Origin: a virus
Virus record (IMG/VR): IMGVR_UViG_3300045988_125079
Location: 79,838 to 143,837 of that record
Reading direction: 5' to 3' (one strand)
DNA: 64,000 bases
Made by a program: the position numbers and the translations under genes. Positions 12,316 to 47,418 of this stretch are shown here, piece after piece. Below the pieces are notes generated by a model. The model searched no databases. It saw only the letters and a program-made list of their open reading frames with translations, and was not told where the DNA came from. How positions within the stretch are numbered: the first letter of the stretch is position 1; the number at the start of each line of letters is the position of its first letter.

Positions 12316-14859
12316 TTGTTTAGTCCACCATTATATAGCGTACTAAAATTTAACTTGAATTATATCGTTTCTCATAACTATAATTTTAAACTGACACCAG
12401 AAGAGATGGAGCAGTATAAAGTCTTGCAGGGTGACGATATGCTGTTCAGACAGATTCGGCTCATTTCCGACGACTAGAATAAATTCCAGCGCTTTATTAT
12501 CTTTGTTGATGCAACAGGCGGCCAAAACCACCCTGATGCTATCGATCATTTAGTAGAGCATGGATTCAAATTTAATGGTCAAAAATATCTGTTCTGTGAA
12601 CGTAGTGCAAGTATGGTTCGTCAGAGTATGTTGAGTTTTGTTGAGCGACATATCTACCCTGAACTCGATCGCCGTGTAAGCATGGAACTGGATTTTTCTG
12701 AGACACCAACTGTCCTGAGCAAGTATTATGCATATCGTGGTTTGATGCTGAGCAGCTGCCACTGTCTGGAGAACTGGTATCCCAAAATGATTGTTGTTCC
12801 AGATTATATGACAACGATCAAGAATCAGTGGATCGAGTACCTGGTAGACAAAACTGTGACGTTTAATGACCGCAAAACAGGCAAAGAACGTACCTGGACC
12901 CAGAAAGATATCGCCACAAAAACAGTTGACATTGATATCAACGCCTTTGATGGTGCTGGAATATGCCACCCAAGTATCATGCGCGAATTTGAAAAGCGTA
13001 TCGGTACTTCTGAACGGATGAATAGCTTGATTCTACGTGCTCCATATATCAAGGGTTGCTTACACGAGATTGATTACGAGCGTTTTTTTGAAGAGAACGG
13101 CGTTACAAAAATCAAGGATATCTGGGGTATGGAATATGATGTAACACCTGGCAGTGAACCAATGATTATTATTACTGCTTCAATGTACAAGGGTCTCAAA
13201 TATTTCAAGAAAACTGGTACCTATTCTGACTGGGAGAGATACTGGGAACTCTTCAAGAAGTACGATAACTGCCTTGGTGTAGCCAAATGGAACTTTACGC
13301 TTGAACAAGAACCGCTTTCCACCCGTAGCAACTATCAGGTTATTCAAGACCTACAGCTTGACAATGAGTCTTTTAAGCATCTAGCCGACGACAGCATTAC
13401 CTGGTATCAGAATATTGTCAAAGGCGACCCGATTTATACATACTGCTTCCTTGGTTTACTTGCCGAGAACAATGACCCGATGAATCATTACATGGCTGCT
13501 GCCCTGCGTAATCCAGTGATGGTAAAAGAGCCGGCAATCAAAGATTATATTCACTCGCTGCTTGATAAATATCGCAATGAGATGAAGTGCGGTCGGCTTT
13601 GGATGAATGCTACTTTTAAGTTCTGGGCTCCTGACCTTATCGCACTATTGCAGCATATTGGTGGCCTTCCTGTGACTGGCTGCCTTGAAGACGGTGAGTT
13701 CTACAGTTTCGATCGTCGTGGTGTGATGGAAGGAGACCGCTTAATTGAGCGCAATCCCCATATCTCTGTTGCTGAGCATGTAAAGGCCAAGGCCGTAGAC
13801 AACGAATACACCCATAAATACTGCAGCCATCTTCAGAATGTTGCTATGGTGAATATCAAATCCATCGTGGCTTCCAGACTTAATGGTTCAGATTTTGACG
13901 GCGACCTGGTTTTAATCATCGACAATCCGCTGATGATGAGTGGTGTTCCTGATAATATCCCCATTACACTTGATGTTGAAGATAAGATCACTGCGTTAGC
14001 AGAATGTGATATTGTGAAGAACAAAGTTGCTTGCACCATTCGTGGATTGAAAAGTTCTATTGGTGAGATCTCAAACTACGCAACTGCATACCATAATAAG
14101 GTTCCGACCATGGAAAAGACCAAAAAGCTCTATCACGATAATATTTCGCTTTTGAGTATCTGCAACGGAAAAGCTATCGATTATGCCAAAACCGGTGTTC
14201 TGTATCCGATCCCGCGTAATGTAGCAGCTTATGGTCGTCCTCTACCCTACTTTATGAAGTATGCAGGTCCTTACTACGCACGTTTACATAATCTCAGCAA
14301 GGCACATAGCAACATGAACCTGCTTTGCATGAGTCTGGAGCGTTGGGAGCGCGGTGTACGGTGGCGCAAAGAGCCGGCAGGCAGCTTTGATTGGCATATC
14401 ATGTACGACCCAGAGGTCTCCTATGACCAGGCAGTCTTTGATGAGATCGAAGCCATTTTCTTGGATTTCAACAAATGCCGCAAGGAACAGCTTGAGTTCG
14501 AAAAGAAATGCCGCAACTGGCAATTATATCATAAGGACATCGAGTCGCGTATTACCAAAGAAGAAGCCAAGACATATGAAACGAACTGGCAGGCGATCTA
14601 CAATGTCTACCGTAACAAGTGCAAGCTGGTGTGTCCTGATGTGAGAGAGCTGGCGAATATTCTTGTAGTGCTTTGCTATGAGAAGTATCCAAATAAATTT
14701 AAGAAGTTCTTGTGGCACATGGCCGGCGCTGGTGTGGTCGAAAATATCAAGCCGGTTCTTGTTCAGTTACCAGTTCACGACCCGAACGGTGAGTATGAAT
14801 ATCTTGGCCAGCGATATAGTTTGGCTGAACCGAAAACTTATGAAGCGAGGGTGAAATAA
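12316..14859 (+). CDS. YonO/RdRP-like single-subunit two-barrel RNA polymerase (847 aa, in-frame TAG at 12475)
   Basis: TTG start 9 nt after GAGGAG, in frame through the TAG with track ORF 12613..14859. GSDFDGD (13891-13905) is the DxDGD metal-binding signature. ERNPHISVAEHV and ERSASMVRQS resemble cellular-RdRP/YonO family blocks. Confidence 0.7.
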
Positions 14860-36400: not shown

Positions 36401-38495
36401 CACATTGGCTGACATTCATAAACAGGTGCAAAAACGGCGTTCAGAGCTACTGTTGCAAAAAACAAAAGATTCTAAAGATGTTAATGATAAACAAACTCAA
36501 CAAGCAAAAAAGATTTTATCTGATGCATTTATTGAACAGGTAAGAGCTTATGCTGATGGTTTAAAAGAATCTTCAAAGTACAACGATGATGACGTTTCTG
36601 AATCTGCAAAAACTGCCCGCAAACAGATGCAGGATGCTTTTGATTCTGCCAATGATAAATTTTTAGAATTGCTTGATGTTTTTTCTGGAGACGAAATCGA
36701 TCAGCTTACATTAAAAGCAAAGAAGGAACTTGATTCTGCTAATAGAATTGTAGATCGCCGAATTGCAAATCTCACTGATAACAATAATAAACAAAATTTA
36801 TCTGTTGAAGATCGTCAGAAAGCATTAGATCAAATTCGAGCTGCGATTGAAAAGAATTCAAACAATATGGACCGCGCCAGGAAGAATGGTTCAGCCGGTA
36901 GTGATCTCTATAGTCAATTCAATGCCAAACAGACCATGTACAAAGCACTAGAAGGTGCAGTATCTTCTGGATCTGGCATTAAAGATTGGGCGAAGACATA
37001 TTTTCCTGCTAAAGTTGACGATATCAATAATGTTACCGATGCTCTGAGGGAAATGCGCGGCGAGTTAACAGAAGACCAAATCAAATTAGCACAAGTATCG
37101 GCTGATAAGTCAATTGAACGTTCTACTAACAAAGCAGCTACTGCGGTTGCAAATTTAAAATCTCAAATTCATGACTATCTTGAAACGAACAAGAAAATTC
37201 AAAATAGTGAGCTGGCTCAGCCTTTTAGAGATCTAATGAATGCATTAAATTCTAAAAATGCTCCAGAAAAAATCGGAGAATTACAGAAACAATTTGCTGA
37301 GCTTCGTGCGAGATCTAAAGAACTTGGACTTGAAACCGAAAGTTTGATTGATAAGTTCGAGAAACTCTTCGGAACGCACTTGAGTACAATGATCACCATG
37401 GCAGCGTTACACAAGATGCAAGACGCCCTACGCTTGGTGTATCAGAACGTGGTCGAGATTGATACGGCAGTAACCGAGCTGAGAAAAGTTAGTGAATATA
37501 CAGGCAAATCTCTCGAAGAATATATGGGACGTGCGGCTGAACAGGCTCAAAAGCTAGGTGTCTCTATCAGTGATTATGTCAATTCTACAGCCGATTAGAA
37601 GCGGCTTGGTTATTCTGATGAAGACGCCGAGAATTTAGCAACCTACTCTACCTTGCTCAAAAACGTTGGCGATAATATCGATGACGTTAACACCTCGTCT
37701 TCGTATTTGATTTCTACTCTGCAAGGTTTTGGGCTGTTAGCCGATCAAGCAGAAGATGTCGTTAATAAAATTGACGCTGTGGCAAACACGCAGCCTGTTA
37801 CTGCAAAAGACCTTGGCGAAATCTTGACTCGCAGTTCTGCTGCTATGTCGGCCGCTAATAATACGCTGGAAGAAACTATCGCGCTTGGTACTGCTGCAAA
37901 TGCAGTTATCCAAGATGCAGATACGGTCGGTACAACTTTAAAAAGTTTATCAATGTATCTCCGTGCTGCTAAAAGTGACGCAGAGAATGCAGGTATTGAA
38001 GTTGACGGTATGGCCAATTCTGTGTCTGAGCTCCGCAGTGAACTGAAATCTCTGACTGGCGTTGACATCATGCTGGATAGCAAAAATTTCAAGAGTACAT
38101 ATCAAATCATGAAAGAGCTGTCTCAAGTATGGAGTGGTCTGTCCGATGTAACGCAAGCAAATGTCACTGAAATGATTGGCGGGAAGAGAAACGCAAATGC
38201 AGTTAGTGCTATTCTAAACAATTTTGACGTTGCTGAATCTGCTATGGAATCCGCTGCTAACAGCGCCAACGTGGCATGGGAAGAGAACGAGAAGTATCTC
38301 GACAGTATCCAAGGCCGCCTTGCGCAACTCAATGCAAGCTTCCAAGTCCTTTCTCAAGATGTCCTCTCTTCCGGTCTCGTGAAGAGTGGAGTATCTTTCC
38401 TCACATCAATTGTTAAACTTCTTGATAAAATCATTAATCTCACTGGTGCCCTTCCTGCTGGACTGGGTATCGCAGCATTTGCAACTCAGCTGGGT
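33408..38495 (+). CDS. tape measure protein, exon 1 (1696 codons, in-frame TAG at 37596)
   Basis: AAGGAGGA SD. Long coiled-coil protein with the conserved tape-measure core (...KLGVSISDYVNSTAD-TAG-KRLGYSDEDAE...). Coding quality collapses after ...AFATQLG at 38495. Confidence 0.75.
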
Positions 38496-38782
38496 GAACC
38501 CAAAATGACGGGTTTCATGATTGTGCCCAGCAATACTCCGGGTGGTGACACGGAACAAGTGCTCCGCAGGTATTATATTATATATTCGCGAAGCATGAGG
38601 GAGTATTTAGTAAAACCGACGAACATGGTGACATAGCCACGGCGAGTTTGGGTAATTCTCGTCCGGGAACCGAAAGGAATCCGCAGGCAAGCTCTGTATA
38701 CGCCTACATTATTATAATAGGCGCTGCTAGAGACGCTTCAGAGAGCATAATGTCGGGGTGGATCTTTTATGTGTTGCTTCCA

Positions 38783-38808
38783 CGATTTTGTTGACGTCAA
38801 CAAAATCG
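38783..38808. repeat. perfect 26-bp palindrome CGATTTTGTTGAC/GTCAACAAAATCG
   Basis: Read directly. It lies 112 nt upstream of the island promoter. It could be an intron hairpin (P8-like) or an operator. Confidence 0.8.
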
Positions 38809-38919
38809 CTCGTAACAATACTATAGGTTCACTATGGGGTGCTCCAAATCAGCTGTCGCAAGATAGCAAAAATTACAGGCGGTCTCTCCCCTGCTGTCAA
38901 AAGTGGAGAAATATTTTTG

Positions 38920-38948
38920 TTGACTATCTTAGTATTTCTGGCTATAAT
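38920..38948 (+). promoter_or_regulatory. consensus sigma70 promoter (TTGACT-17-TATAAT)
   Basis: Exact hexamers with a 17-nt spacer, 55 nt upstream of the ATG at 39003. Confidence 0.75.
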
Positions 38949-39002
38949 AAAAATATCAAAAACAATACACAAGCAAAACGTATGTAGTGGAGGTATTTTA
39001 TT

Positions 39003-39335
39003 ATGGCACGTCCTAAAGGAAGCAAGAATAAAGCAAAGGTTCTCGATGGCGTCGATTATGCAGCACAGATCGCTGAGAAAAATACTGCCGCAGAATCTCT
39101 TGCTGAAGAAATTGCAGCACTTGGCACGAATATTGCCGCGCTGAATGCTGAGAGAAAATCCAAAGAAGCAGAACTGAAAAAGCTCAACAAAGAAGTTACG
39201 AAGCTTGAAAAGAAAAAAGCTGAGGCCGATGAAAAGATTGCAGAAGCTGCGAAGAAAGCTGAAGCTGAAGACGTGCTCAAGAAACTACTGTCCAGTGGTA
39301 TGAGCGCAGATGAGATTTTGGAAAAGCTGAAATAA
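39003..39335 (+). CDS. Lys/Ala/Glu-rich coiled-coil protein with AT-hook-like N-terminus (110 aa)
   Basis: GGAGG SD. MARPKGSKNK start. TAA stop followed by a terminator. Confidence 0.65.
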   Translation: MARPKGSKNKAKVLDGVDYAAQIAEKNTAAESLAEEIAALGTNIAALNAERKSKEAELKKLNKEVTKLEKKKAEADEKIAEAAKKAEAEDVLKKLLSSGMSADEILEKLK

Positions 39336-39353
39336 GGTATCATCATAAAACAA

Positions 39354-39392
39354 GCCCGACTTCCCTACTGCTGGGAGGCCGGGCGTTTTAAT
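39354..39392 (+). terminator. rho-independent terminator
   Basis: 12-bp stem GCCCGACUUCCC/GGGAGGCCGGGC followed by UUUUAAUUU. Confidence 0.65.
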
Positions 39393-39449
39393 TTATGGTT
39401 GATTTTGGTAGCAAGCTATGATACACTCTCACAAAAGGAGTGTTGAATC

Positions 39450-39605
39450 ATGGAAAATAAAAACAAGGCAAGCGTAAAGCAGCCTACTAATAATCCAAAT
39501 CACGGACAAATTAGACATGATGGGCATTTTAGCTATCAGCCAGCACCAGAGAAGCCCAAATCTCCAAATACTGTTAAAACAAAATTCAATCCTAAAAAGA
39601 GGTGA
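39450..39605 (+). CDS. small Pro/Lys/Asn-rich protein (51 aa)
   Basis: AAAGGAG SD. TGA stop 4 nt before the next start. Confidence 0.4.
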   Translation: MENKNKASVKQPTNNPNHGQIRHDGHFSYQPAPEKPKSPNTVKTKFNPKKR

Positions 39606-39609
39606 TAAA

Positions 39610-40173
39610 ATGAATCCAAAAGATTTAATCTCTATTCTTCCGGATTTTTTATCTTATTTTATTCCCGGTGCGACATGTCTTATCATTTACAATTTTTTGT
39701 TTTTAAAGAAATCAGATCATGACAAATTCTTGTTTTGGTCTATTATAATCAGCTATACTTCAAAAATTTTCATTGATACTTTTATCCATAGCCGATTCAA
39801 TTTATTTCTTCATGCTATCTTTTGTATTTTTGCTCCAATTCTATTATTTAGTATCAAAAGAGTCGGTATTAGCGATTGGTTTGATAAAATCACCGGCTTA
39901 TCTAGCGAAGAAAACATTTGGTTAAAAACTATTGACTGGGGTAACGATAATTATATTGCTCTTCATCTTTCGGACAATTCCATATATACAGGTATCATTT
40001 ATTCCGTTGATTGTGACTGGATTATCTTGAAATCTTACGATGACGACAAAGGGAGTAATTCCAGTGATGAAGTCGATTATAAAATTCTTTGTATCCCGAT
40101 TTCTAAGGTTGAGCGATTCGAAATGTCGTATATTGACAATGACAAAATGAAGAAAAAATTCTATCCTGAATAA
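39610..40173 (+). CDS. membrane protein (187 aa, about 3 N-terminal TM helices)
   Basis: ATG at 39610 after AAGAGGTG. Hydrophobic N-terminal half. Confidence 0.6.
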   Translation: MNPKDLISILPDFLSYFIPGATCLIIYNFLFLKKSDHDKFLFWSIIISYTSKIFIDTFIHSRFNLFLHAIFCIFAPILLFSIKRVGISDWFDKITGLSSEENIWLKTIDWGNDNYIALHLSDNSIYTGIIYSVDCDWIILKSYDDDKGSNSSDEVDYKILCIPISKVERFEMSYIDNDKMKKKFYPE

Positions 40174-40182
40174 TAATTTCAA

Positions 40183-40220
40183 GTCCGTATGAGCATTATG
40201 CTTGTGCGGGCTTTTATTTC
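40183..40220. terminator. hairpin terminator between convergent island operons
   Basis: 13-bp stem (with G-U pairs) at 40183-40211, followed by UUUUAUUU on the plus strand. Confidence 0.55.
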
Positions 40221-40235
40221 TATATTACTACGCAG

Positions 40236-40580
40236 CTAATCCTTGATTTCATTATCAAGACGTTTGATATAATCTGCTTCCAGCTGGTCGAAGTTTAAAT
40301 TATAGCGAGTTTCCAAGTAGTTCAGCACAGAGTCCAGTGCACTTCCTATGAAATATTTGTTTGCACCAAATTCATATCTCAGGCTCCCAATCGTTTCTGG
40401 CATGATTGGATATCCATCTCTTCCGTCAAACAGGTCGTTATTACAAGCGGGATTTCTGTAAGCAACAGGATAATGATAAAACCCGCCCTTGCCGTAGTTA
40501 TTGGACTTGTTATATGTCCACTCAGCAGCAAAGTCCTCAAGTATCGCTATAAGTTCTGCACGTTCTTGTGACATACTCAT
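40236..40580 (-). CDS. hypothetical protein (114 aa), terminates at TAG
   Basis: GGAG SD. The stop codon is TAG, and the terminator hairpin follows immediately. Confidence 0.6.
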   Translation of the reverse strand: MSMSQERAELIAILEDFAAEWTYNKSNNYGKGGFYHYPVAYRNPACNNDLFDGRDGYPIMPETIGSLRYEFGANKYFIGSALDSVLNYLETRYNLNFDQLEADYIKRLDNEIKD

Positions 40581-40689
40581 AATTGATTTCTCCGTAAAGA
40601 ATTAGAAATTCGAATTACAGTTTTTGCAATGCCATTGTTTTCCGATTTTCCCGCTGGCAGCGCCCACGAGAGATACAGACACTGTGCGG

Positions 40690-41598
40690 CTATGGACGTT
40701 CTAGTTTTGCATCGATCGTTTTCTTCTGTGTGCAATAATCCAATACGTATTTCAAATCATCTCGAACTTTTTTAGTCGCATCGTCGCCGTGCCAACCCGT
40801 ATCGAGATATTGTTCGTAGAAGTATTGAATTATTTCCGTTTCGGTATGTTTCCCTGTGTCAATAAAATCTCGGAGGATTCGCTGTCTTTGTGTTGCTGAC
40901 TTTGTTGTTGTGTACCCATCTTTATTTATAGTTGTTTGTTGGGCAAAGTCGTCAAAGATTTCGTTCTGATCTTCATAATAACTCGCCCACAATGCAAGTT
41001 CTCTACCATGCTTAGACATAGATGAGTCAAACTCAGTCGATAAATAATATTGATAACTGCCACCTTTTGCAGCAAAAATTTCTTTTGTTACAAAATATTT
41101 GTCGCATTTATCACAGTGAATAACATCAACAGTGGTTGGATCGGTGAAAGCCTCGTATTCCGGTTTAGGTTTAATTCTAGCTCTATACGCCGTGCAATGG
41201 TGCTTCTGTCTGAAACATTTATTTGATTTAAAATAAAATATAACTGTGTGGAGTTTATCATCAGTCCAGTCGATATCTTGAGGTATCTGATACTGGGCTG
41301 CCAATGCTTGATCTACCTGTTTTGTTTCAAGGATAGTGTATTTTAAAGTCCGTCCGTCTTTCTCGATCTGAAAGGAATCTGCTCCTGTCGCAGCTGCTTT
41401 CATAGCCGCATCAAACAAATTCTTCATCTTTTCATCGCCACGCAAAACAAACACGGGATATTCATAGCATCCAGGCTCTGGCAAAACACTAAATTCGTAA
41501 TCCGACAAAATTATCTTATAAATTTCAGGATCGTCTACATTCTCATCCTCTGAAAAGTAGGCATATAATATCGCATAGACTGGATTATATGCTTCCAT
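40690..41598 (-). CDS. hypothetical protein (302 aa), terminates at TAG (25 more codons if TAG is read as sense, ending at 40615)
   Basis: Long ORF with GAGGAAAA SD. The stop codon is TAG. Confidence 0.6.
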   Translation of the reverse strand: MEAYNPVYAILYAYFSEDENVDDPEIYKIILSDYEFSVLPEPGCYEYPVFVLRGDEKMKNLFDAAMKAAATGADSFQIEKDGRTLKYTILETKQVDQALAAQYQIPQDIDWTDDKLHTVIFYFKSNKCFRQKHHCTAYRARIKPKPEYEAFTDPTTVDVIHCDKCDKYFVTKEIFAAKGGSYQYYLSTEFDSSMSKHGRELALWASYYEDQNEIFDDFAQQTTINKDGYTTTKSATQRQRILRDFIDTGKHTETEIIQYFYEQYLDTGWHGDDATKKVRDDLKYVLDYCTQKKTIDAKLERP

Positions 41599-41613
41599 GA
41601 TTTTTCCTCGATA

Positions 41614-42246
41614 TCAAAAGTTACTATTACAATTCTTACAGTGCCATTGTTTACCTAACTTCGGAGACGCGATACCGAATGCGTAAATTGATATACCACG
41701 GCTTACTCCAGAGATCTTCTCGGTATTTGCGGACTTACAGTAGGGGCAGACGACACGCTTGCCGTTGGCGAGGTCTTGCTGCTCTTGACGTGCGGCCTGT
41801 TGCGCCTCGGCTTCGTGTTGCTCGTGAAGATGAGCCATTTGTTGACGATGAGCTTCTTTGTTCTGTCTACGGATTGCTTCTTCTACACACAAAATCCCCG
41901 GATGATCTTTCTCTCGAAGTTGGTCATAGTAGAATTGAAGAAACTCTGAATTATTTCTTTTATAATGGATTTTATTGTCTCCAAATAATTTTCTATTGCT
42001 TGTTTTAATTTGTTTGTAGCGTCCTCTCAACTCTTTATGATCTTTTAAAATACAATCAGTTAAATATGCCCTTGTAACATTTTCATAATACTCTTCTAAT
42101 GTTTTTGTATCAGGGTCTTCTTTTAGATATTCATAGTCCGGGTATATTTTAAGAATTCTTTTTGCCTCATTCCACCAAGATAGCCTTTGAAAGTACCCTT
42201 CTGGTTTTGGAAATGGTATATCTTTTTTTATGATTCCTATTTTCAT
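41614..42246 (-). CDS. hypothetical protein with C-terminal zinc ribbon (210 aa)
   Basis: GAGAGGA SD. CPYCKS...WHCKNCNSNF. First gene downstream of the minus-strand island promoter. Confidence 0.6.
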   Translation of the reverse strand: MKIGIIKKDIPFPKPEGYFQRLSWWNEAKRILKIYPDYEYLKEDPDTKTLEEYYENVTRAYLTDCILKDHKELRGRYKQIKTSNRKLFGDNKIHYKRNNSEFLQFYYDQLREKDHPGILCVEEAIRRQNKEAHRQQMAHLHEQHEAEAQQAARQEQQDLANGKRVVCPYCKSANTEKISGVSRGISIYAFGIASPKLGKQWHCKNCNSNF

Positions 42247-42293
42247 AGCATCCTCTCAATCGTGACAAATAATCTTAACCGACCATTTTGATT

Positions 42294-42322
42294 ATTATAC
42301 GATATGACAGTCAATAAGTCAA
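42294..42322 (-). promoter_or_regulatory. consensus sigma70 promoter (TTGACT-17-TATAAT) reading leftward into the island
   Basis: On the minus strand, TTGACT is at 42322-42317 and TATAAT at 42299-42294. The -35 hexamer lies inside tape-measure exon 2. Confidence 0.7.
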
Positions 42323-45300
42323 TGATTGAGCTTGGAAATAGCCTTGACGGAACAATCAAAAATGCTGTTGACTCTGTAAAAAAATTAGAAGGCATTCCAA
42401 AGGCATACCAGAAATTCATGGTATCTGGAGATTTTGTCTGGGGAAATGGGCAAAAAGTTGATATATCTTCTTATGGAAATAGTTCAAAGGAACTTAACAA
42501 TTATATTGCTCAAGTTTCCACATTAAACAAAGAGCAACAAAAAGTCGTTTTCTCTATGACAAATTTCAGTGATGGGCAAAAAGAAATTATCACTAATACA
42601 TTGAATGAAATTTCAACAGGGGAAAAACTAAACGGCATCATCGCAGAGCAGGTGTTAAGAGAAAAAGGATTTGGCGAAGCTGCCGTAAAAGGATTGACTT
42701 CTATTTACAAACTAAGTGACGGAGCTGGAAATTATGGAGTTGCTCTCACTTCCAAAGTTATTCCTGCAATGGAAGGATGGATTAACAAGCATACAGAATT
42801 AATTGATGCGAATGAATTATTAAAAAACAACATCATTACTGGAACTGCGGGGAACTATAAATTTTCTGATTCTTTTATTCAACTTATTTCCAATGAACAA
42901 AATGCCGTTGTTGTAACCAAAGCACTTACCGCAACTCAAAAAGCGTGGAATATTGCAACACAATTTAGTAAACAACTTCTCCTCTCTCTTGGCGTAGCCG
43001 CTGTTGCCTTTATTGCAACCAAAATTGTCGATTATCTGATGAACCTAAAAACTCGTTCTGAAGAACTTGTTGATGCAATGAATGATTCTCACGATGCTGC
43101 ACAGCAAGCAACTAAGGATGTTGAAGAGATCCAGTCTAAAATTGACGAGCTGAACAAATCTCTGAAGGACGCGGGCGTTAAAAAGATTGAAGACATCGTT
43201 GATCCTGCCGAGCGCGAGCGTCTGCAAGCCATCAACGATATGTTGCAGGCTCAACTCGAACTCAAGAAGCAGCTGGAGAAGGATGCGAACGATAAAGCAA
43301 ATGCCGACACAAGTGCTGTTGTGAATGATAAGACAGAAGACAGTATTGTGAAATCCCGCACAGTAAATGTTTCTTATGCCGAGGGTGGTGCAAATGCTGG
43401 CACTCATCAGGTTGCAGAGAAAGTCTCTAAGACTGAATCTCTTGAAGAGCACGCTGCTGCACTTAACGACCTAATCGATAAACGGCGCGAACTAGCTACT
43501 GCTGGCAAAGAAGATACTCAAGAGTACAAAGACAATGAGGCTGCAATCGTGTCCGAAACCGAGAAGGTTGAAGAGCTCTCCTCTGCTGTGTCTGAGCAAA
43601 TGGACGGTTATGAGACAAATGCCGACAGTTTCGCTAGGTACAAAGATGAGTATGTTACAGGCACGAATGCAATGACTGCAGCCACTAAAGCTCTGGCGAA
43701 TGCACAAGATAATACAGGCATTGATACTACCAATCTTGATATATTCTCAGAAAAAGTAAAACAAATCAAGAATGATATCGACAATGGTGATTCTCAGCAA
43801 AGCGATTGGAAAACATTCAATGGGCTTGACGCATTTAGTGGAATGACTGGCGAGGCAATAATCAACATCGATAAAGACTCTTCTCATCAAACCGAGACCG
43901 AAACAGCTGCGCTTGAAAAACTCCATAAAACTGCAGACGAGAATAAAATATCATTTGAGTCTCTAATTGGTGTGTTTGAAAGTTTCGGTCTTGTGCAAAT
44001 TAGTAACTCTGCAACTGCTGACGATTACGCCGATAAACTCGAAAAAACAATGGGCGTCATCGACAATATTCAATCAGCATACAAAGCCTGTTCTAGTGCT
44101 GTTGAAGAATATAACCAGTATGGATACATGAGCGTTGACTCGTTGCAAGCTCTTTTGCAAATGGATGACCAGTATCTTAATACTCTTGAACTTGTTAATG
44201 GAAAGCTCCAAGTCAATCAAAGTGCGTATGCAGATTTATTGGCAACTCAATACGCAGAAGCTCAAACGGAAGCTATTTCTCAGGCGATATCAGAACTAAA
44301 TGCGATTGCAAAGGGAGACGCCGCAGAAAAAGCCGAGACATTTACTGAAGCAACTGAAGATGAAAAGAATAAGCTTACTGCTTTATGCCCCGCTTTGAAA
44401 GATGCTACTGTTGGAACAGGCGAACTTGCTGCCGCATTAGCCGCTGCACAGGGAGCAGCCAACGGGGAAGACGCTGACGCTATTCAAGCTAAAATTGACG
44501 GTGTTATGAACGCATTAAACACCAGATTAAAGCTTATTGGAAATAATATGTCTGCCGCAATGAATGGCGCTGCCGGTTTACGCAATCAGCTCGATGGCTT
44601 TAGCAATTCTTCGAACAAGGCTGCGGATTCTTCGAGAAAGGCAGCGGATTCTTCTAAAACACTTCTTGACGCATGGTCTACCCTTACCTCTGCGATGAAA
44701 GAATACAACGAGCAAGGTTATATCACTTTCCAAACCCTGAAGAGTTTGACCGACCTTGAAGATAAGTATTCTTCTATGCTCAAAAAGAATGACGTTACTG
44801 GTCAGCTTGAAATACGCACAGATGACTTTTATAAGTTAATGAAAGCCGAGCTGAAAGAAGCGCAGATAAAAGGTGACGGTGCAAGTGAAGCACAGTACAA
44901 TAAGATTCTTGAGTGGACAAACCGTAACATCAAAAATCAGATCATGTCCTACTGGGATCTGGTCGCTGCAATTGAAGGTTACACTGCTGCTCTCTCAGGT
45001 GCTAAAGAAATCACTGACACATTCAAAGATGCATGGGATAATGGCAAAACTGTCAAGGAAAAGCAAGAAAAGAGTCGTGCCGGCGCACTTGATTATGAAG
45101 GTACTGAAGCACAATCCTCTGCTCTGCAAGCCCTGATGAAGTACAGCGAATATGACCCTGAATTGATTGGCAAGGCGTTCAATAAGGAAACTGGCAAAAT
45201 TGATTTGAGCGGAGACATGCTGAAAACCGCCGTTACAGAATCGCTAAAGCAGCAGGCTGCCGCAGCTCGTACTGAAGGTGGAGCAGCTGCTGAAGCTATT

Positions 45301-47418
45301 GCTGCAAGCTATGAGAAGTCTGCCGAGAATATTGAGAATGACGTCATTTCCGTACAGGATTATTTTGACGGTCTTGGCTCTACGATCGAAGAAGCCAACT
45401 CGAAGATTGATGAGCTGCAGAGCGCGTACACAGATCTCGAAGATACTGCCAGCGAATATAATACTTATGGCGGCTTAAGCGTTGATAGTTTGCAAAAGTT
45501 GCTTACAATGTCTCCTGAGTATCTTGCATGTCTCGAAATGAATGGCGATCAACTTGTTTTCAACCGTGACAAAATGCAAGAACTTTTGATTCTCCAGCTT
45601 GAGAGTAGAAAAGAATTCTTGACATCTAAGAAAGAAACAGAAGATCAGGCTCAGATTATCCAGGCCATTATAGATTCTATTCGAACTAATGGTGTCAATG
45701 CTATTAAAGGAATGGGCACAGAAGCCGGACGAGTAAAATCAATCCTTTCAGATATGAAAGACATCTTCTCTTCCTTTCTTGATCTGATTGAAAGTGCAAA
45801 CTCGAAAAAGGATAACGACCTCAAACTTTGGGGCGAGGCCATGACCGAGGATATAGATAAGCGAATCGATGCCCTAAACAAGCAGAAAGAAGCTCTTCAA
45901 GAAGCCAATGACGAAGAGGAACGCGCGATTACCCTGGCTAAGCTAAAGGCCGAACTTGAAAAGGCTCGCACTCAGCGTACTGTTCGCAAGTTGACCAGCA
46001 ATGGCTATGAGTGGGTTGCTGACGAATCCGCAGTCAAGGAAGCTCAGGATAATCTGAATGACCAACAACGTGAGTGGCGCAAGGAAGATGCCGAGAAAGC
46101 TATTGATGACCAGATTGATAAACTGAACGAACTGAAAGATAAGTATAGCGAGATTATCGGTCTAATTGGAACTGACTGGGATGACTATAATAAAAAGCTG
46201 AAATATGCATCCGAAATCGCCGATATGACTTTCACAGAAATGGAAGGTCGTGTCGATGTTTTTAAGGGCAATGTTTTAGCTTCTATGCAAGCCGCCAATC
46301 CAATTTCTACTATTAAGAAGATTATTAGTGGACTTGAGTCTCTAATTAGTACGCTTGAAAAAGTCGGAAATGTCTTAGATAAGCTGGATGGCGGTAGTGG
46401 CAACGGCGGAATTACCACTTTATGGAATAAAATCACCAACTTGTTTAATGGAAAGAACACGAACAATACGCAGACCGCTTTTGGTAATTTCTGGAATAGC
46501 CTTAGTCAGGTTGGCAGAAATGGCGTAAATAAACTTCAAGAAGTAATTTTTGGTGGTTGGAATAAAATAACATCAGGAACCAGTGGTTTTCTTTCTAATG
46601 TAGGAAACTTCTTTGGTGGAGCGTAGAATAAAATTTCAACTTCGACCAGTTTACTGTTTGGCGATATTGGATCATTCTTTTCTCAGGGTTTTAGTTCATT
46701 AGTTGGGCTTGCACAAAACGGATTAGGAAGCGTTGTATCTGTTGTTGGTAGCCTCTTTACTCCGATTGCAAATGGAGCTATGTCTATTGGCAGTGCAATA
46801 AGCTCTGGCATTGTATCGTTCTTCCCTTCGATTTTTATGGCGCTTGGAACATTGGTTTCTACTGTTGGTGCTGCAATGAGTGGCATGTTAATGCAAATTG
46901 CTACCGCATTAGCTTCAATCCCGGTTGTAGGATGGATAGCAGCAGCAGTTGCAGTTGCAGGCGCTGTTGCTCTAATTGCGTCCATCGCTGCTACTGCATC
47001 AAAGACTAGTAAAACAACAGTAGATCAACCGAAGCCTTCATTCAAAGCAAAAAAATATGCGAAGGGCTCAAAAACAATTGATAAGGATCAGTTGGCTAAT
47101 GTCGATGAACAAGGTTCTGAGCTTGTTGTTCGTCAACCAGAATCTGGTCGTTATACATATTTAGAAACTGGTGATGGTGTTGTTCCGGCAGACATAACAT
47201 CTCGGTTGTTTGAAATGGGAGGAAATCCCGACGAATGGTTCAATAAACAACTCGCAAAGCACGTTGCGTTAAGTAATGTTCAGAATCATACCGTTGGAGG
47301 AGCAGTCTCTGTTGGAGATATTTATATTCAAAATCCTGTTGGAAATACAAATGAACTCGCAAAAGAGATTGTTTTAAAACTGCCAAATGCCTTGCTGCAA
47401 TATCAAAGCAAGCGATGA
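42307..47418 (+). CDS. tape measure protein, exon 2 (1703 aa, in-frame TAG at 46624)
   Basis: No SD precedes the ATG at 42304. Coiled-coil rich. Track ORFs 42304..46626 and 46780..47418 are joined in frame by the TAG. Gly/Ala-rich hydrophobic segment and a typical tape-measure C-terminus. Confidence 0.75.

What the first reader, a model, noticed from the sequence alone, without database searches (positions are those of the whole stretch)
38783..42322. The cargo island is a self-contained pair of convergent operons under two identical consensus sigma70 promoters
Two exact TTGACT-17-TATAAT promoters face each other, at 38920-38948 (plus strand) and 42322-42294 (minus strand). They drive three plus-strand ORFs (39003, 39450, 39610) and three minus-strand ORFs (41614..42246, 40690..41598, 40236..40580). 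The two operons meet at a shared hairpin terminator (40183-40220).

The -35 of the right promoter lies inside tape-measure exon 2. A perfect 26-bp palindrome (38783-38808) sits upstream of the left promoter.

The products are an AT-hook-like coiled-coil protein, a 3-TM membrane protein, a zinc-ribbon protein and unknowns. I recognised no nuclease or recombinase.

This looks like a moron or accessory module, perhaps for exclusion, defence or counter-defence. It would be expressed by host RNA polymerase independently of late transcription, and it sits where splicing would keep the essential gene intact.
Basis: partly seen in the sequence, partly recalled or inferred. Interest (0 to 1): 0.7.

Follow-up and report, generated by a model that had tools for sequence, protein, structure and literature searches.

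The report
Accessory-gene island inside a tape-measure intron
A 3.8-kb stretch that splits the tail tape-measure gene of a gut prophage looks like a self-splicing intron that carries a shuffling set of independently promoted accessory genes instead of the usual homing endonuclease.

Summary
The sequence features are real. The only two TTGAC-N17-TATAAT sites in the 64-kb window sit at 38920-38948 (+) and 42322-42294 (-). They flank six ORFs that all have good ribosome-binding sites.

Three details need correcting:
- A110 has its own bidirectional terminator at 39354-39384.
- The "shared" hairpin at 40181-40213 is a strong terminator on the plus strand only.
- The 26-bp palindrome is a window-specific insertion in a peripheral RNA stem, not an operator.

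The island lies between a ~410-nt conserved structured RNA with group I intron hallmarks and a covarying 3' hairpin. Removing 38496-42306 joins the tape-measure halves in frame. The joined product aligns colinearly with the uninterrupted tape measure of Enterocloster phage PMBT24.

All of about 80 relatives carry an island at this site. These are SPbeta-like gut prophages of 100-150 kb. A110 and a Zn-ribbon gene are constant, and the middle is a mosaic of about 50 architectures that includes MazF, retropepsin-like and DUF6338-like genes.

The phage encodes a YonO-type late RNA polymerase. Two transcription regimes over the same DNA are therefore plausible.

Best reading: a host-polymerase-expressed accessory (moron) hotspot housed in a fixed group I intron. 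The function of the cargo is inferred, not shown.

The parts
37653..38495 (+). 3' part of tape-measure exon 1. It ends ...ATQLG, with GGT as its last codon.
   Evidence: PhageMin_Tail PF10145 at E 1e-17 and phrog_4211 at E 5e-46. The last 7 nt, GCUGGGU, pair with GCCCAGC inside the intervening sequence, with a U.G pair at the end.
38496..38910 (+). Conserved structured RNA, proposed to be the catalytic core of a group I intron.
   Evidence: In 37 distinct relatives the junctions are invariant and the peripheral hairpins vary with compensatory changes. Of 83 predicted pairs, 11 show double changes. P/Q/R/S-like motifs are visible by inspection. There is no RF00028 hit here. There is one at the equivalent place in L066: 26.8 bits, E 3.5e-4.
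38783..38808 (.). Perfect 26-bp palindrome, a window-specific extension of a variable stem of the RNA.
   Evidence: It falls in a block that is absent from the other 36 aligned relatives. It folds at -12.9 kcal/mol.
38920..38948 (+). Left sigma-A/sigma-70 consensus promoter, TTGACT-17-TATAAT.
   Evidence: TTGAC[AT]-17-TATAAT is present upstream of the A110 homologue in 71/71 relatives, with two unrelated spacer versions.
39003..39335 (+). A110: invariant N-terminal M-x-RPKGSKNK (AT-hook-like), a coiled coil, and a conserved C-terminal helix. It is a constant member of the locus.
   Evidence: Found in all 80 relatives, as 59 distinct sequences. Only coiled-coil noise in Pfam, PHROGs, PADLOC and NCBIfam.
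39354..39384 (.). Bidirectional intrinsic terminator after A110.
   Evidence: -24.9 kcal/mol (+) and -23.4 (-). No shuffle out of 200 folds as well, and a U-rich tract follows on both strands.
39450..39605 (+). B51: small basic protein that precedes the C187-type gene.
   Evidence: Good RBS. Similar small MENK/MENN ORFs precede C187 homologues in most relatives that carry one. No family match.
39610..40173 (+). C187: three N-terminal hydrophobic segments plus a C-terminal Sm-like domain. It is a distant relative of DUF6338 and a variable cassette.
   Evidence: Present in 33 of 71 islands. There are 38 clusters among 1.84 billion representatives. 12 of 30 family members hit PF19865. The family profile gives weak Sm/LSm matches in the PDB. 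GC is 0.29-0.32 against 0.40-0.46 in the flanks.
40181..40213 (+). Intrinsic terminator of the B51-C187 unit, effective on the plus strand only.
40236..40580 (-). D114: orphan protein, the usual downstream partner of the Zn-ribbon gene.
   Evidence: Present in 27 of 71 islands. It also follows the Zn-ribbon gene in the distant phages L148, L149, L151 and L157. No PDB or family match.
40602..40700 (-). Truncated duplicate of the Zn-ribbon C-terminus (NVHSRTVSVSLVGAASGKIGKQWHCKNCNSNF*), read as a cassette-exchange scar.
   Evidence: Translation. Direct repeat of 40601-40650 with 41613-41662, 72% identical.
40690..41598 (-). E302: orphan protein with conserved Cys pairs, a variable cassette.
   Evidence: Present in 14 of 71 islands. 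Only 32 clusters among 5.8 billion proteins, all in this phage context. The AF2 model (pLDDT 70.7) has no PDB analogue.
41614..42246 (-). F210: variable helical N-terminal domain plus a conserved C-terminal Zn-ribbon module (CPYC...GKQWHCxxC). It is a constant member and always the rightmost gene, antisense to the tape measure.
   Evidence: Present in 70 of 71 islands and in 118 protein clusters. Alignment A1. The AF2 model (pLDDT 85) has no PDB or BFVD analogue. The same module, joined to other N-termini, occupies the same position in phages with 24-50% tape-measure identity.
42268..42296 (+). Covarying hairpin with an invariant GACC loop just upstream of the 3' splice site. It overlaps the -10 of the right promoter.
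   Evidence: 7 of 10 pairs show double changes. 88.9% of cells are paired against 34-52% in the slid controls, and 0 of 500 shuffles reach the observed score. Its 3' arm lies upstream of the expected minus-strand start, so it can form only in plus-strand RNA (inference).
42294..42322 (-). Right consensus promoter, TTGACT-17-TATAAT. Its -35 lies in exon 2.
   Evidence: AAGTCAAT is invariant in 36 distinct relatives while the downstream coding sequence diverges. The strict pattern is kept in 34 of 71 relatives.
42307..46626 (+). Tape-measure exon 2 (TVNKSMIELG...). The predicted 3' splice site follows G42306.
   Evidence: G|ACA(A/G)TC is conserved. ACAGU/ACAAU can pair with AUUGU next to the guide sequence (P10, by inspection). 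There is no Shine-Dalgarno (at most 3/6) and no consistent start codon in 31 relatives. It is colinear with the uninterrupted PMBT24 tape measure.

Best explanation
The 3.8 kb between 38496 and 42306 is a group I-type intron that splits the tape-measure gene of an SPbeta-like prophage of gut Clostridia. Where phage introns normally carry a homing-endonuclease gene, this one carries a set of small transcription units read by the host sigma-A RNA polymerase.

**The units**
- The left consensus promoter drives A110, which ends at a bidirectional terminator.
- B51-C187 follow and end at a plus-strand terminator.
- The right consensus promoter has its -35 inside exon 2. It drives F210-E302-D114 on the opposite strand.

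**Proposed mechanism, lysogeny or early infection**
- Only these units are transcribed.
- Their products act as prophage accessory functions. These are a membrane protein of the DUF6338 type, orphan proteins and, in sister phages, a MazF toxin and proteases.
- The most likely roles are superinfection exclusion, abortive defence or addiction.

**Proposed mechanism, late infection**
- The phage's YonO-type polymerase reads through the whole region, including the host-type terminators.
- The 5' ribozyme core and the conserved 3' hairpin bring the splice sites together.
- The intron and all of its cargo are removed, giving an intact tape-measure mRNA that no longer overlaps any antisense transcript.

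**Cassette turnover**
- The middle of the island turns over by recombination between conserved end pieces: A110 with its promoter on the left, and the Zn-ribbon gene with its promoter on the right.

**Shown versus inferred**
- Shown: the anatomy, its conservation, the mosaicism, the in-frame colinear junction, the RNA covariation, and the presence of a YonO-like gene.
- Inferred: splicing itself, which polymerase reads what, the timing of expression, and the function of the cargo.
For: **Promoters**
- They are the only two such sites in 64 kb.
- The left one is kept in 71/71 relatives, and sites of this kind are about 23-fold enriched in the islands.

**Genes**
- All six have a good RBS and conserved homologues.
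- Terminators.

**Intron**
- P1 with a U.G pair, an invariant G before exon 2, and in-frame ligation.
- Compensatory changes in the 5' RNA and in the 3' hairpin.
- Exon 2 lacks an RBS and a consistent start codon.
- In some relatives the tail of the exon-1 ORF is broken by a 1-nt deletion or an early stop.
- RF00028 hits the equivalent RNA in L066, ahead of the same cargo.
- A second, canonical intron with an HNH gene sits in the tape-measure gene of L058.
- The uninterrupted PMBT24 tape measure aligns across the junction and further on.

**Accessory character**
- About 50 architectures in 71 loci.
- MazF/PemK at E 9e-20 and a retropepsin-like protease above the Pfam threshold.
- A proteasome-like cassette.
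- C187 is low in GC.
- A recombination scar.

**Two polymerases**
- Pfam RdRP/YonO-type ORF at 12613-14859.
- SPbeta-type structural genes are nearby.
- YonO transcribes the SPbeta late genes as one operon and is highly processive (PMC5467207).

**Prophage state**
- The same genes occur on contigs of 323-706 kb.
Against: - The window's 5' RNA gives no hit to the Rfam group I model even at E<=10 on 461 nt. I could not draw a clean P3-P7 pseudoknot: P7 would need a 5-nt bulge.
- No intron-less allele with the predicted junction exists in IMG/VR or in the JGI metagenome contigs. The junction therefore rests on RNA pairing and protein colinearity only.
- None of the six proteins of this window matches a known defence, toxin-antitoxin or exclusion family.
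- A110 and the Zn-ribbon gene are universal, which fits a built-in role better than optional cargo.
- The minus-strand unit has no convincing terminator of its own.
- Read-through of intrinsic terminators by YonO-type polymerases is inferred from its processivity. It was not reported directly.
- This window's tape-measure gene also carries a TAG in place of a conserved Trp codon, so this copy may be defective.
Confidence: 0.6

Rival explanations
1. The constant genes (the Zn-ribbon protein F210, perhaps with D114 and A110) serve the intron itself. They could be an unrecognised homing or maintenance factor, a splicing helper, or a DNA-binding protein that marks the site. On this view the variable genes are hitch-hikers.
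For: A gene with the Zn-ribbon module lies antisense at the 3' end of the intervening sequence in 70/71 close relatives. It holds the same position in phages with only 24-50% tape-measure identity, usually with a sigma-A-type promoter at the exon-2 boundary. A110 is in all 80 relatives and has an invariant AT-hook-like N-terminus. Phage introns normally carry a mobility gene, and none is otherwise present.
Against: No nuclease motif or fold was found. The conserved module is about 47 residues of Zn ribbon without the catalytic His/Asn of HNH. Its N-terminal partners include transmembrane segments and further Zn ribbons, which does not suit an endonuclease. The intron appears fixed, with no empty sites, so there is no sign of ongoing homing.
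Confidence: 0.15
2. The main function is regulatory, not protein-coding. Strong convergent host-polymerase transcription, especially antisense from the exon-2 boundary, blocks or destroys any read-through of the tape-measure and later tail genes in the lysogen. The proteins would be secondary.
For: The right promoter straddles the 3' splice site and is conserved at the nucleotide level. The minus-strand unit has no good terminator at 40181-40213, so it may run antisense through C187/B51 to the bidirectional terminator at 39354-39384. Splicing would remove every sequence complementary to these transcripts.
Against: All six ORFs have strong ribosome-binding sites and are conserved as proteins. 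Cassettes such as MazF and proteases make sense as proteins. SPbeta-type late genes depend on a phage polymerase that is itself off in lysogens, so an extra block seems unnecessary.
Confidence: 0.1
3. There is no splicing. The tape measure is made as two proteins from two genes, the structured RNA has another role, and the island is an ordinary intergenic moron cluster.
For: Rfam does not recognise the window's RNA as a group I intron. No empty-site allele was found. Gene callers annotate separate proteins. Plus-strand terminators lie between the two halves.
Against: Exon 2 has no ribosome-binding site and no conserved start. In L016 a stop codon abuts the predicted splice site. The P1/P10/terminal-G geometry gives an in-frame join. 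The ORF tail after the predicted 5' splice site is conserved as RNA, not as protein. The PMBT24 tape measure is one protein that aligns with both halves. L066 has a recognisable group I core at this place.
Confidence: 0.1
4. The six ORFs are ordinary tail-module genes, such as chaperones or minor tail proteins.
For: They lie inside the tail gene cluster.
Against: Half are on the opposite strand and they have host-type consensus promoters and terminators. Content differs among close relatives, with about 50 architectures. The uninterrupted PMBT24 tape-measure gene has no such insertion. There are no PHROG tail families beyond coiled-coil noise.
Confidence: 0.03

Closest known systems
Phage morons: independent promoter-gene-terminator units in prophages such as the lambda and HK97 family (reviewed in PMC3594210, listed)
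   Same: They have their own host-type promoter and terminator. They are read independently of the surrounding late operon, vary among related phages and differ in base composition. They often encode membrane, exclusion or toxin functions.
   Different: Classic morons sit between genes. Here a whole bidirectional cluster sits inside an essential gene and relies on RNA splicing to be harmless. Two of its genes are fixed rather than optional, and one promoter overlaps coding sequence of the host gene.
Group I introns of phages that carry a homing-endonuclease gene with its own promoter, such as T4 td, nrdB and nrdD/sunY and the SPbeta bnrdE/bnrdF introns (from my own knowledge)
   Same: A self-splicing RNA interrupts a conserved phage gene. 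An internal ORF lies in a peripheral loop and is expressed on its own. As in sunY, the cargo lies 3' of the catalytic core, with a short terminal element before the 3' splice site. A canonical example with an HNH gene sits in the same tape-measure gene of relative L058.
   Different: There are six genes on both strands and no recognisable endonuclease. The intron is 2.1-5.2 kb long with shuffling content, and it is fixed in all relatives with no empty sites. The window's core is not recognised by RF00028.
Prophage and satellite accessory or defence hotspots flanked by conserved genes, such as the P2/P4 hotspots (from my own knowledge)
   Same: The position is fixed, the anchor genes are conserved and the internal cassettes are highly variable. 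Cassettes include toxin-antitoxin-like and protease genes.
   Different: The hotspot is nested in an intron of a structural gene. The cassettes of this particular window match no catalogued defence family.
SPbeta late transcription by YonO (PMC5467207)
   Same: The window encodes a YonO-type polymerase and SPbeta-type structural genes. This would separate late transcription from host-polymerase units.
   Different: SPbeta's own tape-measure gene (yomI) is, from my own knowledge, uninterrupted. Whether YonO-type enzymes ignore the island's terminators has not been tested.

Membership tests
Moron (independent transcription unit in a prophage) | Its own host-type promoter | tested here: met
   Two 11/12 consensus sites, the only ones in 64 kb. 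They are conserved in relatives.
Moron (independent transcription unit in a prophage) | Its own terminator | tested here: met
   A110 has the 39354-39384 terminator and B51-C187 has the 40181-40213 terminator. The minus-strand unit has no clear terminator of its own.
Moron (independent transcription unit in a prophage) | Present in some related phages and absent in others | tested here: inconclusive
   Met for B51, C187, D114 and E302. Not met for A110 (80/80) or the Zn-ribbon gene (70/71).
Moron (independent transcription unit in a prophage) | Expressed from the repressed prophage | not testable with these tools
   This needs transcript data from lysogens. The prophage state itself is inferred from contigs of 323-706 kb.
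Group I intron | P1 helix between the exon end and an internal guide, with a U.G pair at the 5' splice site | tested here: met
   GCUGGGU/GCCCAGC is invariant in 37 sequences and is predicted by RNAalifold.
Group I intron | Terminal G, P10 pairing, and in-frame ligation that restores a conserved protein | tested here: met
   G|ACA(A/G)TC is conserved. ACAGU can pair with AUUGU (by inspection). The join is in frame. The product is colinear with the PMBT24 tape measure.
Group I intron | Catalytic core (P3-P9) that matches the family model | tested here: not met
   No RF00028 hit in the window, even at E<=10 on 461 nt. P/Q/R/S-like strings are seen only by eye. The equivalent RNA of relative L066 scores 26.8 bits, E 3.5e-4, which is below the gathering score.
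Group I intron | Self-splicing activity | not testable with these tools
   This needs in-vitro transcription with GTP, or RT-PCR.
Homing endonuclease gene (as intron cargo) | LAGLIDADG, GIY-YIG, HNH, His-Cys or PD-(D/E)xK nuclease domain | tested here: not met
   No such domain was found in any of the six proteins. The AF2 models of F210 and E302 have no nuclease-like matches.
Known anti-phage defence or toxin-antitoxin system | Match to a catalogued defence or toxin family | tested here: not met
   PADLOC gives only coiled-coil noise for the window's proteins. Cassettes in relatives do match: PemK/MazF PF02452 at E 9e-20, and an Asp protease (PF13975/PF13650, with a PDC-M08B match in PADLOC).
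DUF6338 (PF19865), for C187 | Significant match to the family model | tested here: inconclusive
   The window protein itself has no hit. 12 of 30 homologues do, with a best E of 2.4e-5.

The most novel reading that the evidence does not exclude
A self-splicing intron has been turned into a protected cargo bay. A fixed group I intron in an essential late gene houses a recombining, bidirectional set of host-polymerase-driven accessory, toxin or defence genes. One promoter straddles the 3' splice site. The phage's own processive polymerase plus splicing erase the whole island from the tape-measure mRNA. The arrangement, with its Zn-ribbon anchor gene, is conserved across a broad clade of SPbeta-like gut prophages.
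Probability: 0.5. Interest if true: 0.8.

Novelty: new variant of a known kind. Interest (0 to 1): 0.7.

Why it matters
Phage introns are thought of as selfish RNAs that carry at most a homing endonuclease. Morons and defence hotspots are thought of as lying between genes.

If this reading holds, an intron can act as a stable landing pad. A prophage could then keep and exchange lysogen-expressed genes in the middle of an essential structural gene at no cost to that gene.

That would add a new kind of accessory-gene hotspot to look for in gut phages. It would explain why tape-measure genes of this abundant clade are annotated as fragments. It would also offer a natural system for three open questions:
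- how a ribozyme finds a 3' splice site 2-5 kb away;
- how two RNA polymerases share one stretch of DNA;
- what the orphan families do (A110, the Zn-ribbon module, D114, E302 and DUF6338-like proteins).

Tried and rejected
**Intron type**
- Group II intron: the 40181-40213 hairpin looked a little like domain V. It has no bulge and no GNRA loop, only about 60 nt follow the last ORF, and Rfam finds nothing.
- Rfam on the window's RNA alone gave nothing useful. Rfam on five distant loci and on L143 gave no significant group I hit, although R/S-like strings are visible by eye in L143. I therefore do not claim those as introns.

**Structure and family searches**
- Structure searches for F210 (PDB and BFVD) and E302 (PDB) gave no match better than E 0.01 and TM about 0.2.
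- PDB profile searches gave nothing for D114. C187 gave only weak Sm-like matches.
- NCBIfam, PHROGs and PADLOC gave no function for the six proteins.

**Searches for related sequences**
- Intron-less alleles: the exact junction pattern gave 0 hits in viral and metagenome contigs. A relaxed pattern gave 50 chance hits, none related to a tape measure.
- Host identification through GTDB genomes gave only one MAG, labelled Peptococcaceae. Cluster look-ups gave no names.
- PHROG scans of the window's ends, run to establish lifestyle, gave nothing informative.
- A literature search found no description of multi-gene cargo in a phage intron and nothing on DUF6338 function.

**Interpretations dropped**
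- The palindrome as an operator was rejected because it is absent from relatives.
- The inverted repeat at the right promoter as an operator was judged less likely than an RNA hairpin. Its sequence varies while the pairing is kept.

Full report
**1. The observation**

The region was read directly and its ORFs were listed.
- The consensus scan ranks TTGACT-17-TATAAT at 38920-38948 (+) and 42322-42294 (-) as the two best promoter-like sites in 37-44 kb.
- A pattern search shows they are the only TTGAC-N17-19-TATAAT sites in the whole 64-kb window. The expectation is 0.17, and 2 of 100 shuffles reach two.
- The six ORFs are A110 (39003-39335 +), B51 (39450-39605 +), C187 (39610-40173 +), D114 (40236-40580 -), E302 (40690-41598 -) and F210 (41614-42246 -).
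- All six have 4-5 of 6 matches to AGGAGG at the right distance.
- The 26-bp palindrome and the 40181-40213 hairpin are present.

**2. Corrections to the anatomy**

- A110 is followed by a strong hairpin plus U-tract at 39354-39384 that folds about equally well on both strands (-24.9 and -23.4 kcal/mol). The left promoter therefore most likely serves a one-gene unit.
- B51-C187 form a second unit. A candidate weaker promoter, TTGATT-17-TACACT at 39399-39427, was found by inspection only.
- The 40181-40213 hairpin terminates the plus strand well (-20.4 kcal/mol, z -4.96, U-run). On the minus strand its G.U pairs become mismatches (-7.5, z -0.83) and no U-run follows.
- Minus-strand transcripts may therefore run antisense through C187/B51 to the bidirectional terminator. 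This is an inference.
- The palindrome lies in a block that the other 36 aligned relatives lack.
- A truncated second copy of the Zn-ribbon C-terminus lies just after E302, at 40602-40700. It reads as a scar of cassette exchange.

**3. Surroundings: a split tape-measure gene**

- ORF 37653-38636 carries the PhageMin_Tail domain and matches tape-measure PHROGs up to about residue 278.
- The 1440-aa ORF from 42304 is the distal part.
- A search in IMG/VR returned 80 relatives with 59-99% identity in exon 1, on contigs of up to about 150 kb. Every one has an insertion at this place beginning with an A110 homologue.
- In the 51 close relatives both boundary motifs are present and the intervening length runs from 2071 to 5196 nt.

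**4. The intervening sequence behaves like a group I intron**

*Evidence for*
- The first ~410 nt are nearly invariant, including at codon third positions. The exceptions are hairpins that change by compensatory substitutions. By contrast, the exon just upstream shows synonymous variation.
- The last 7 nt of the proposed exon 1 (GCUGGGU) pair with GCCCAGC 30 nt downstream, ending in a U.G pair.
- The base before exon 2 is always G. The exon starts ACA(A/G)U, which can pair with AUUGU next to the guide sequence (pairing by inspection).
- The join is in frame (...ATQLG|TVNKSMIELG...).
- The reading frame that continues past the 5' splice site ends at different places in different relatives. One relative has a 1-nt deletion there.
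- Exon 2 has no Shine-Dalgarno (at most 3/6) and no consistent start codon in 31 distinct relatives. In L016 a stop codon abuts the predicted splice site.
- A hairpin just before the 3' splice site (42268-42296) keeps its pairing through double changes in 7 of 10 pairs. 88.9% of cells are paired against 34-52% in the slid controls, and the GACC loop is invariant.
- The 3' arm of that hairpin lies upstream of the expected minus-strand start. It can therefore only be a plus-strand RNA element. This also implies that the island is transcribed through on the plus strand.
- The cultured Enterocloster phage PMBT24 has one uninterrupted 1508-aa tape-measure gene. It aligns colinearly with the conceptual spliced product, across the junction and twice more in exon 2.
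- In the more distant relative L066, Rfam's group I model hits the equivalent RNA (26.8 bits, E 3.5e-4). The same promoter, an A110 homologue, a C187-type gene and a convergent Zn-ribbon gene follow it.
- Relative L058 has an additional, canonical group I intron (52.8 bits) with an HNH gene elsewhere in the same tape-measure gene.

*Evidence against*
- The window's own RNA gets no RF00028 hit at any threshold.
- I could not draw a standard P7.
- No intron-less allele with the predicted junction was found.

I rate the intron reading at about 0.8.

**5. What kind of phage**

- Neighbouring genes in relatives carry the YomN, YomU, YomV and YomW families of Bacillus phage SPbeta.
- The window encodes a 748-aa protein matching Pfam RdRP (E 2e-13). 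This is the family to which SPbeta YonO belongs (my own knowledge).
- YonO transcribes the SPbeta late genes as one operon, pauses little and lacks the flap domain used in hairpin-dependent termination (PMC5467207).
- Island proteins and tape-measure homologues of this clade occur on contigs of 323-706 kb, which points to integrated prophages.
- The cultured relatives infect Enterocloster bolteae.

**6. The island across relatives**

- Clustering the ORFs of 71 islands gives about 50 different gene orders.
- The constants are A110 with its promoter on the left and a Zn-ribbon gene on the right. The Zn-ribbon gene is in 70 of 71 islands and is always antisense.
- The variable cassettes are:
  - the C187 type (33 loci);
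  - a retropepsin-like aspartic protease with a small partner (32 loci; PF13975 and PF13650 above threshold);
  - D114 (27 loci);
  - E302 (14 loci);
  - a weakly proteasome-like protein (10 loci; best PDB profile hit E 1.6e-4);
  - a PemK/MazF toxin (5 loci; E 9e-20);
  - several small orphans.
- The left promoter is kept in 71/71 loci, with two unrelated spacer versions. Consensus sites are about 23 times denser inside the islands than in 1.23 Mb of flanking phage DNA. Some extra cassettes bring their own promoter.

**7. The Zn-ribbon anchor**

- The F210 family has 118 clusters. It combines a variable N-terminus with an invariant C-terminal module, CPYCxSxNTxKI...GKQWHCxxCxSxF.
- A scan with this alignment found the module in further phages whose tape-measure part 1 is only 24-50% identical to the window's. 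In at least 17 of those 24 loci it again lies antisense, next to a tape-measure part-1 homologue on the opposite strand.
- There the N-termini are double Zn ribbons, transmembrane segments or nothing.
- In L143 the gene is again preceded by TTGACA-17-TAAAAT at the boundary (by inspection).
- This persistence is the main reason to keep open a built-in role for this gene.

**8. The six proteins of this window**

- None matches a family of known function in Pfam, PHROGs, PADLOC or NCBIfam.
- A110 has an invariant M-x-RPKGSKNK start, a coiled coil and a conserved C-terminal helix.
- C187 has three hydrophobic segments and a C-terminal domain with weak Sm-like similarity. 12 of 30 homologues touch DUF6338.
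- The F210 model (pLDDT 85) and the E302 model (pLDDT 70.7) have no structural analogues.
- E302 has only 32 clusters, all in this context.
- No nuclease, recombinase or integrase was recognised.

**9. Mechanism proposed**

- *Shown:* the units, their signals and conservation, the mosaic content, the RNA elements and the in-frame junction.
- *Inferred, lysogeny or early infection:* the host sigma-A polymerase transcribes the short units, giving accessory proteins. By analogy with morons and with the cassettes of relatives, these act in exclusion, abortive defence or addiction.
- *Inferred, late infection:* the YonO-type polymerase reads through the terminators. The ribozyme then removes the whole island, and with it every sequence complementary to the antisense transcripts.
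- *Inferred, turnover:* cassettes are exchanged by recombination between the conserved end pieces. The Zn-ribbon remnant after E302 is direct evidence of one such event.

**10. Comparison with what is known, and novelty**

- It works like a moron cluster or accessory hotspot. It fails full membership only in that two genes are constant and lysogenic expression is untested.
- It works like a phage group I intron with an independently expressed internal gene. It resembles T4 sunY in having its cargo 3' of the core. It fails two membership tests here: the family model does not match and there is no homing endonuclease.
- I found no description of a multi-gene, bidirectional, non-endonuclease cargo inside a phage intron.
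- I therefore rate it a new variant of known kinds, with interest 0.7.

Noticed in passing
window 37596-37598: A TAG stop interrupts the tape-measure gene inside its PhageMin_Tail domain. The next ORF continues in the same frame. In nearly all relatives this codon is TGG (Trp, ...STADWKRLGY...). Two loci of the distant group carry the same TAG. It could be a nonsense mutation in a decaying prophage, an assembly variant or a read-through site.
   Followed up: partly
window 12613-14859 (+): A 748-aa ORF matches Pfam RdRP (PF05183, E 2e-13), the family of SPbeta YonO. It is a probable phage-encoded late RNA polymerase.
   Followed up: partly
L058 10507-12130: A relative has a second, canonical group I intron (RF00028 52.8 bits, above the gathering score) with a 371-aa HNH-type ORF. 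It is inserted about 100 codons upstream in the same tape-measure gene. The gene is therefore a repeated target for introns.
   Followed up: partly
L142-L167 (for example L143 5656-6198, L156 5284-6231, L158 6150-6929): The ~47-aa C-terminal Zn-ribbon module (CPYC...GKQWHCNNC.SDF) is joined to very different N-termini: helical domains, one to three extra Zn ribbons, or transmembrane segments. In most of these loci it sits antisense beside a tape-measure part-1 homologue, in phages only 24-50% identical in that protein.
   Followed up: partly
L066 10890-11241 versus window 38496-38910: The distant group has a different, longer ribozyme. By the Rfam P1 alignment, its 5' splice site lies about 20 codons further downstream in the tape measure, yet it carries the same promoter-A110 cargo. 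Either the 5' half of the intron or the cargo has been exchanged between introns.
   Followed up: no
proteins P0059 and P0103: Two tape-measure fragments from related contigs are annotated with phage-integrase domains (PF00589, PF02899, PF13495) as well as PhageMin_Tail. This could be a gene-calling fusion or a recombinase inserted in the tape-measure gene.
   Followed up: no
window 42268-42296 and 38545-38556: The invariant GACC(A) loop of the 3' hairpin is complementary to UGGU in the invariant GGGUGGUGAC loop near the 5' end of the RNA. This could be a long-range contact that brings the distant 3' splice site to the core. Both sides are invariant, so covariation cannot test it.
   Followed up: no
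window 39354-40213: The minus-strand unit lacks a good terminator at 40181-40213. Its transcripts may therefore run antisense across C187 and B51 to the bidirectional terminator at 39354-39384. This would be a possible antisense control of the membrane protein.
   Followed up: no
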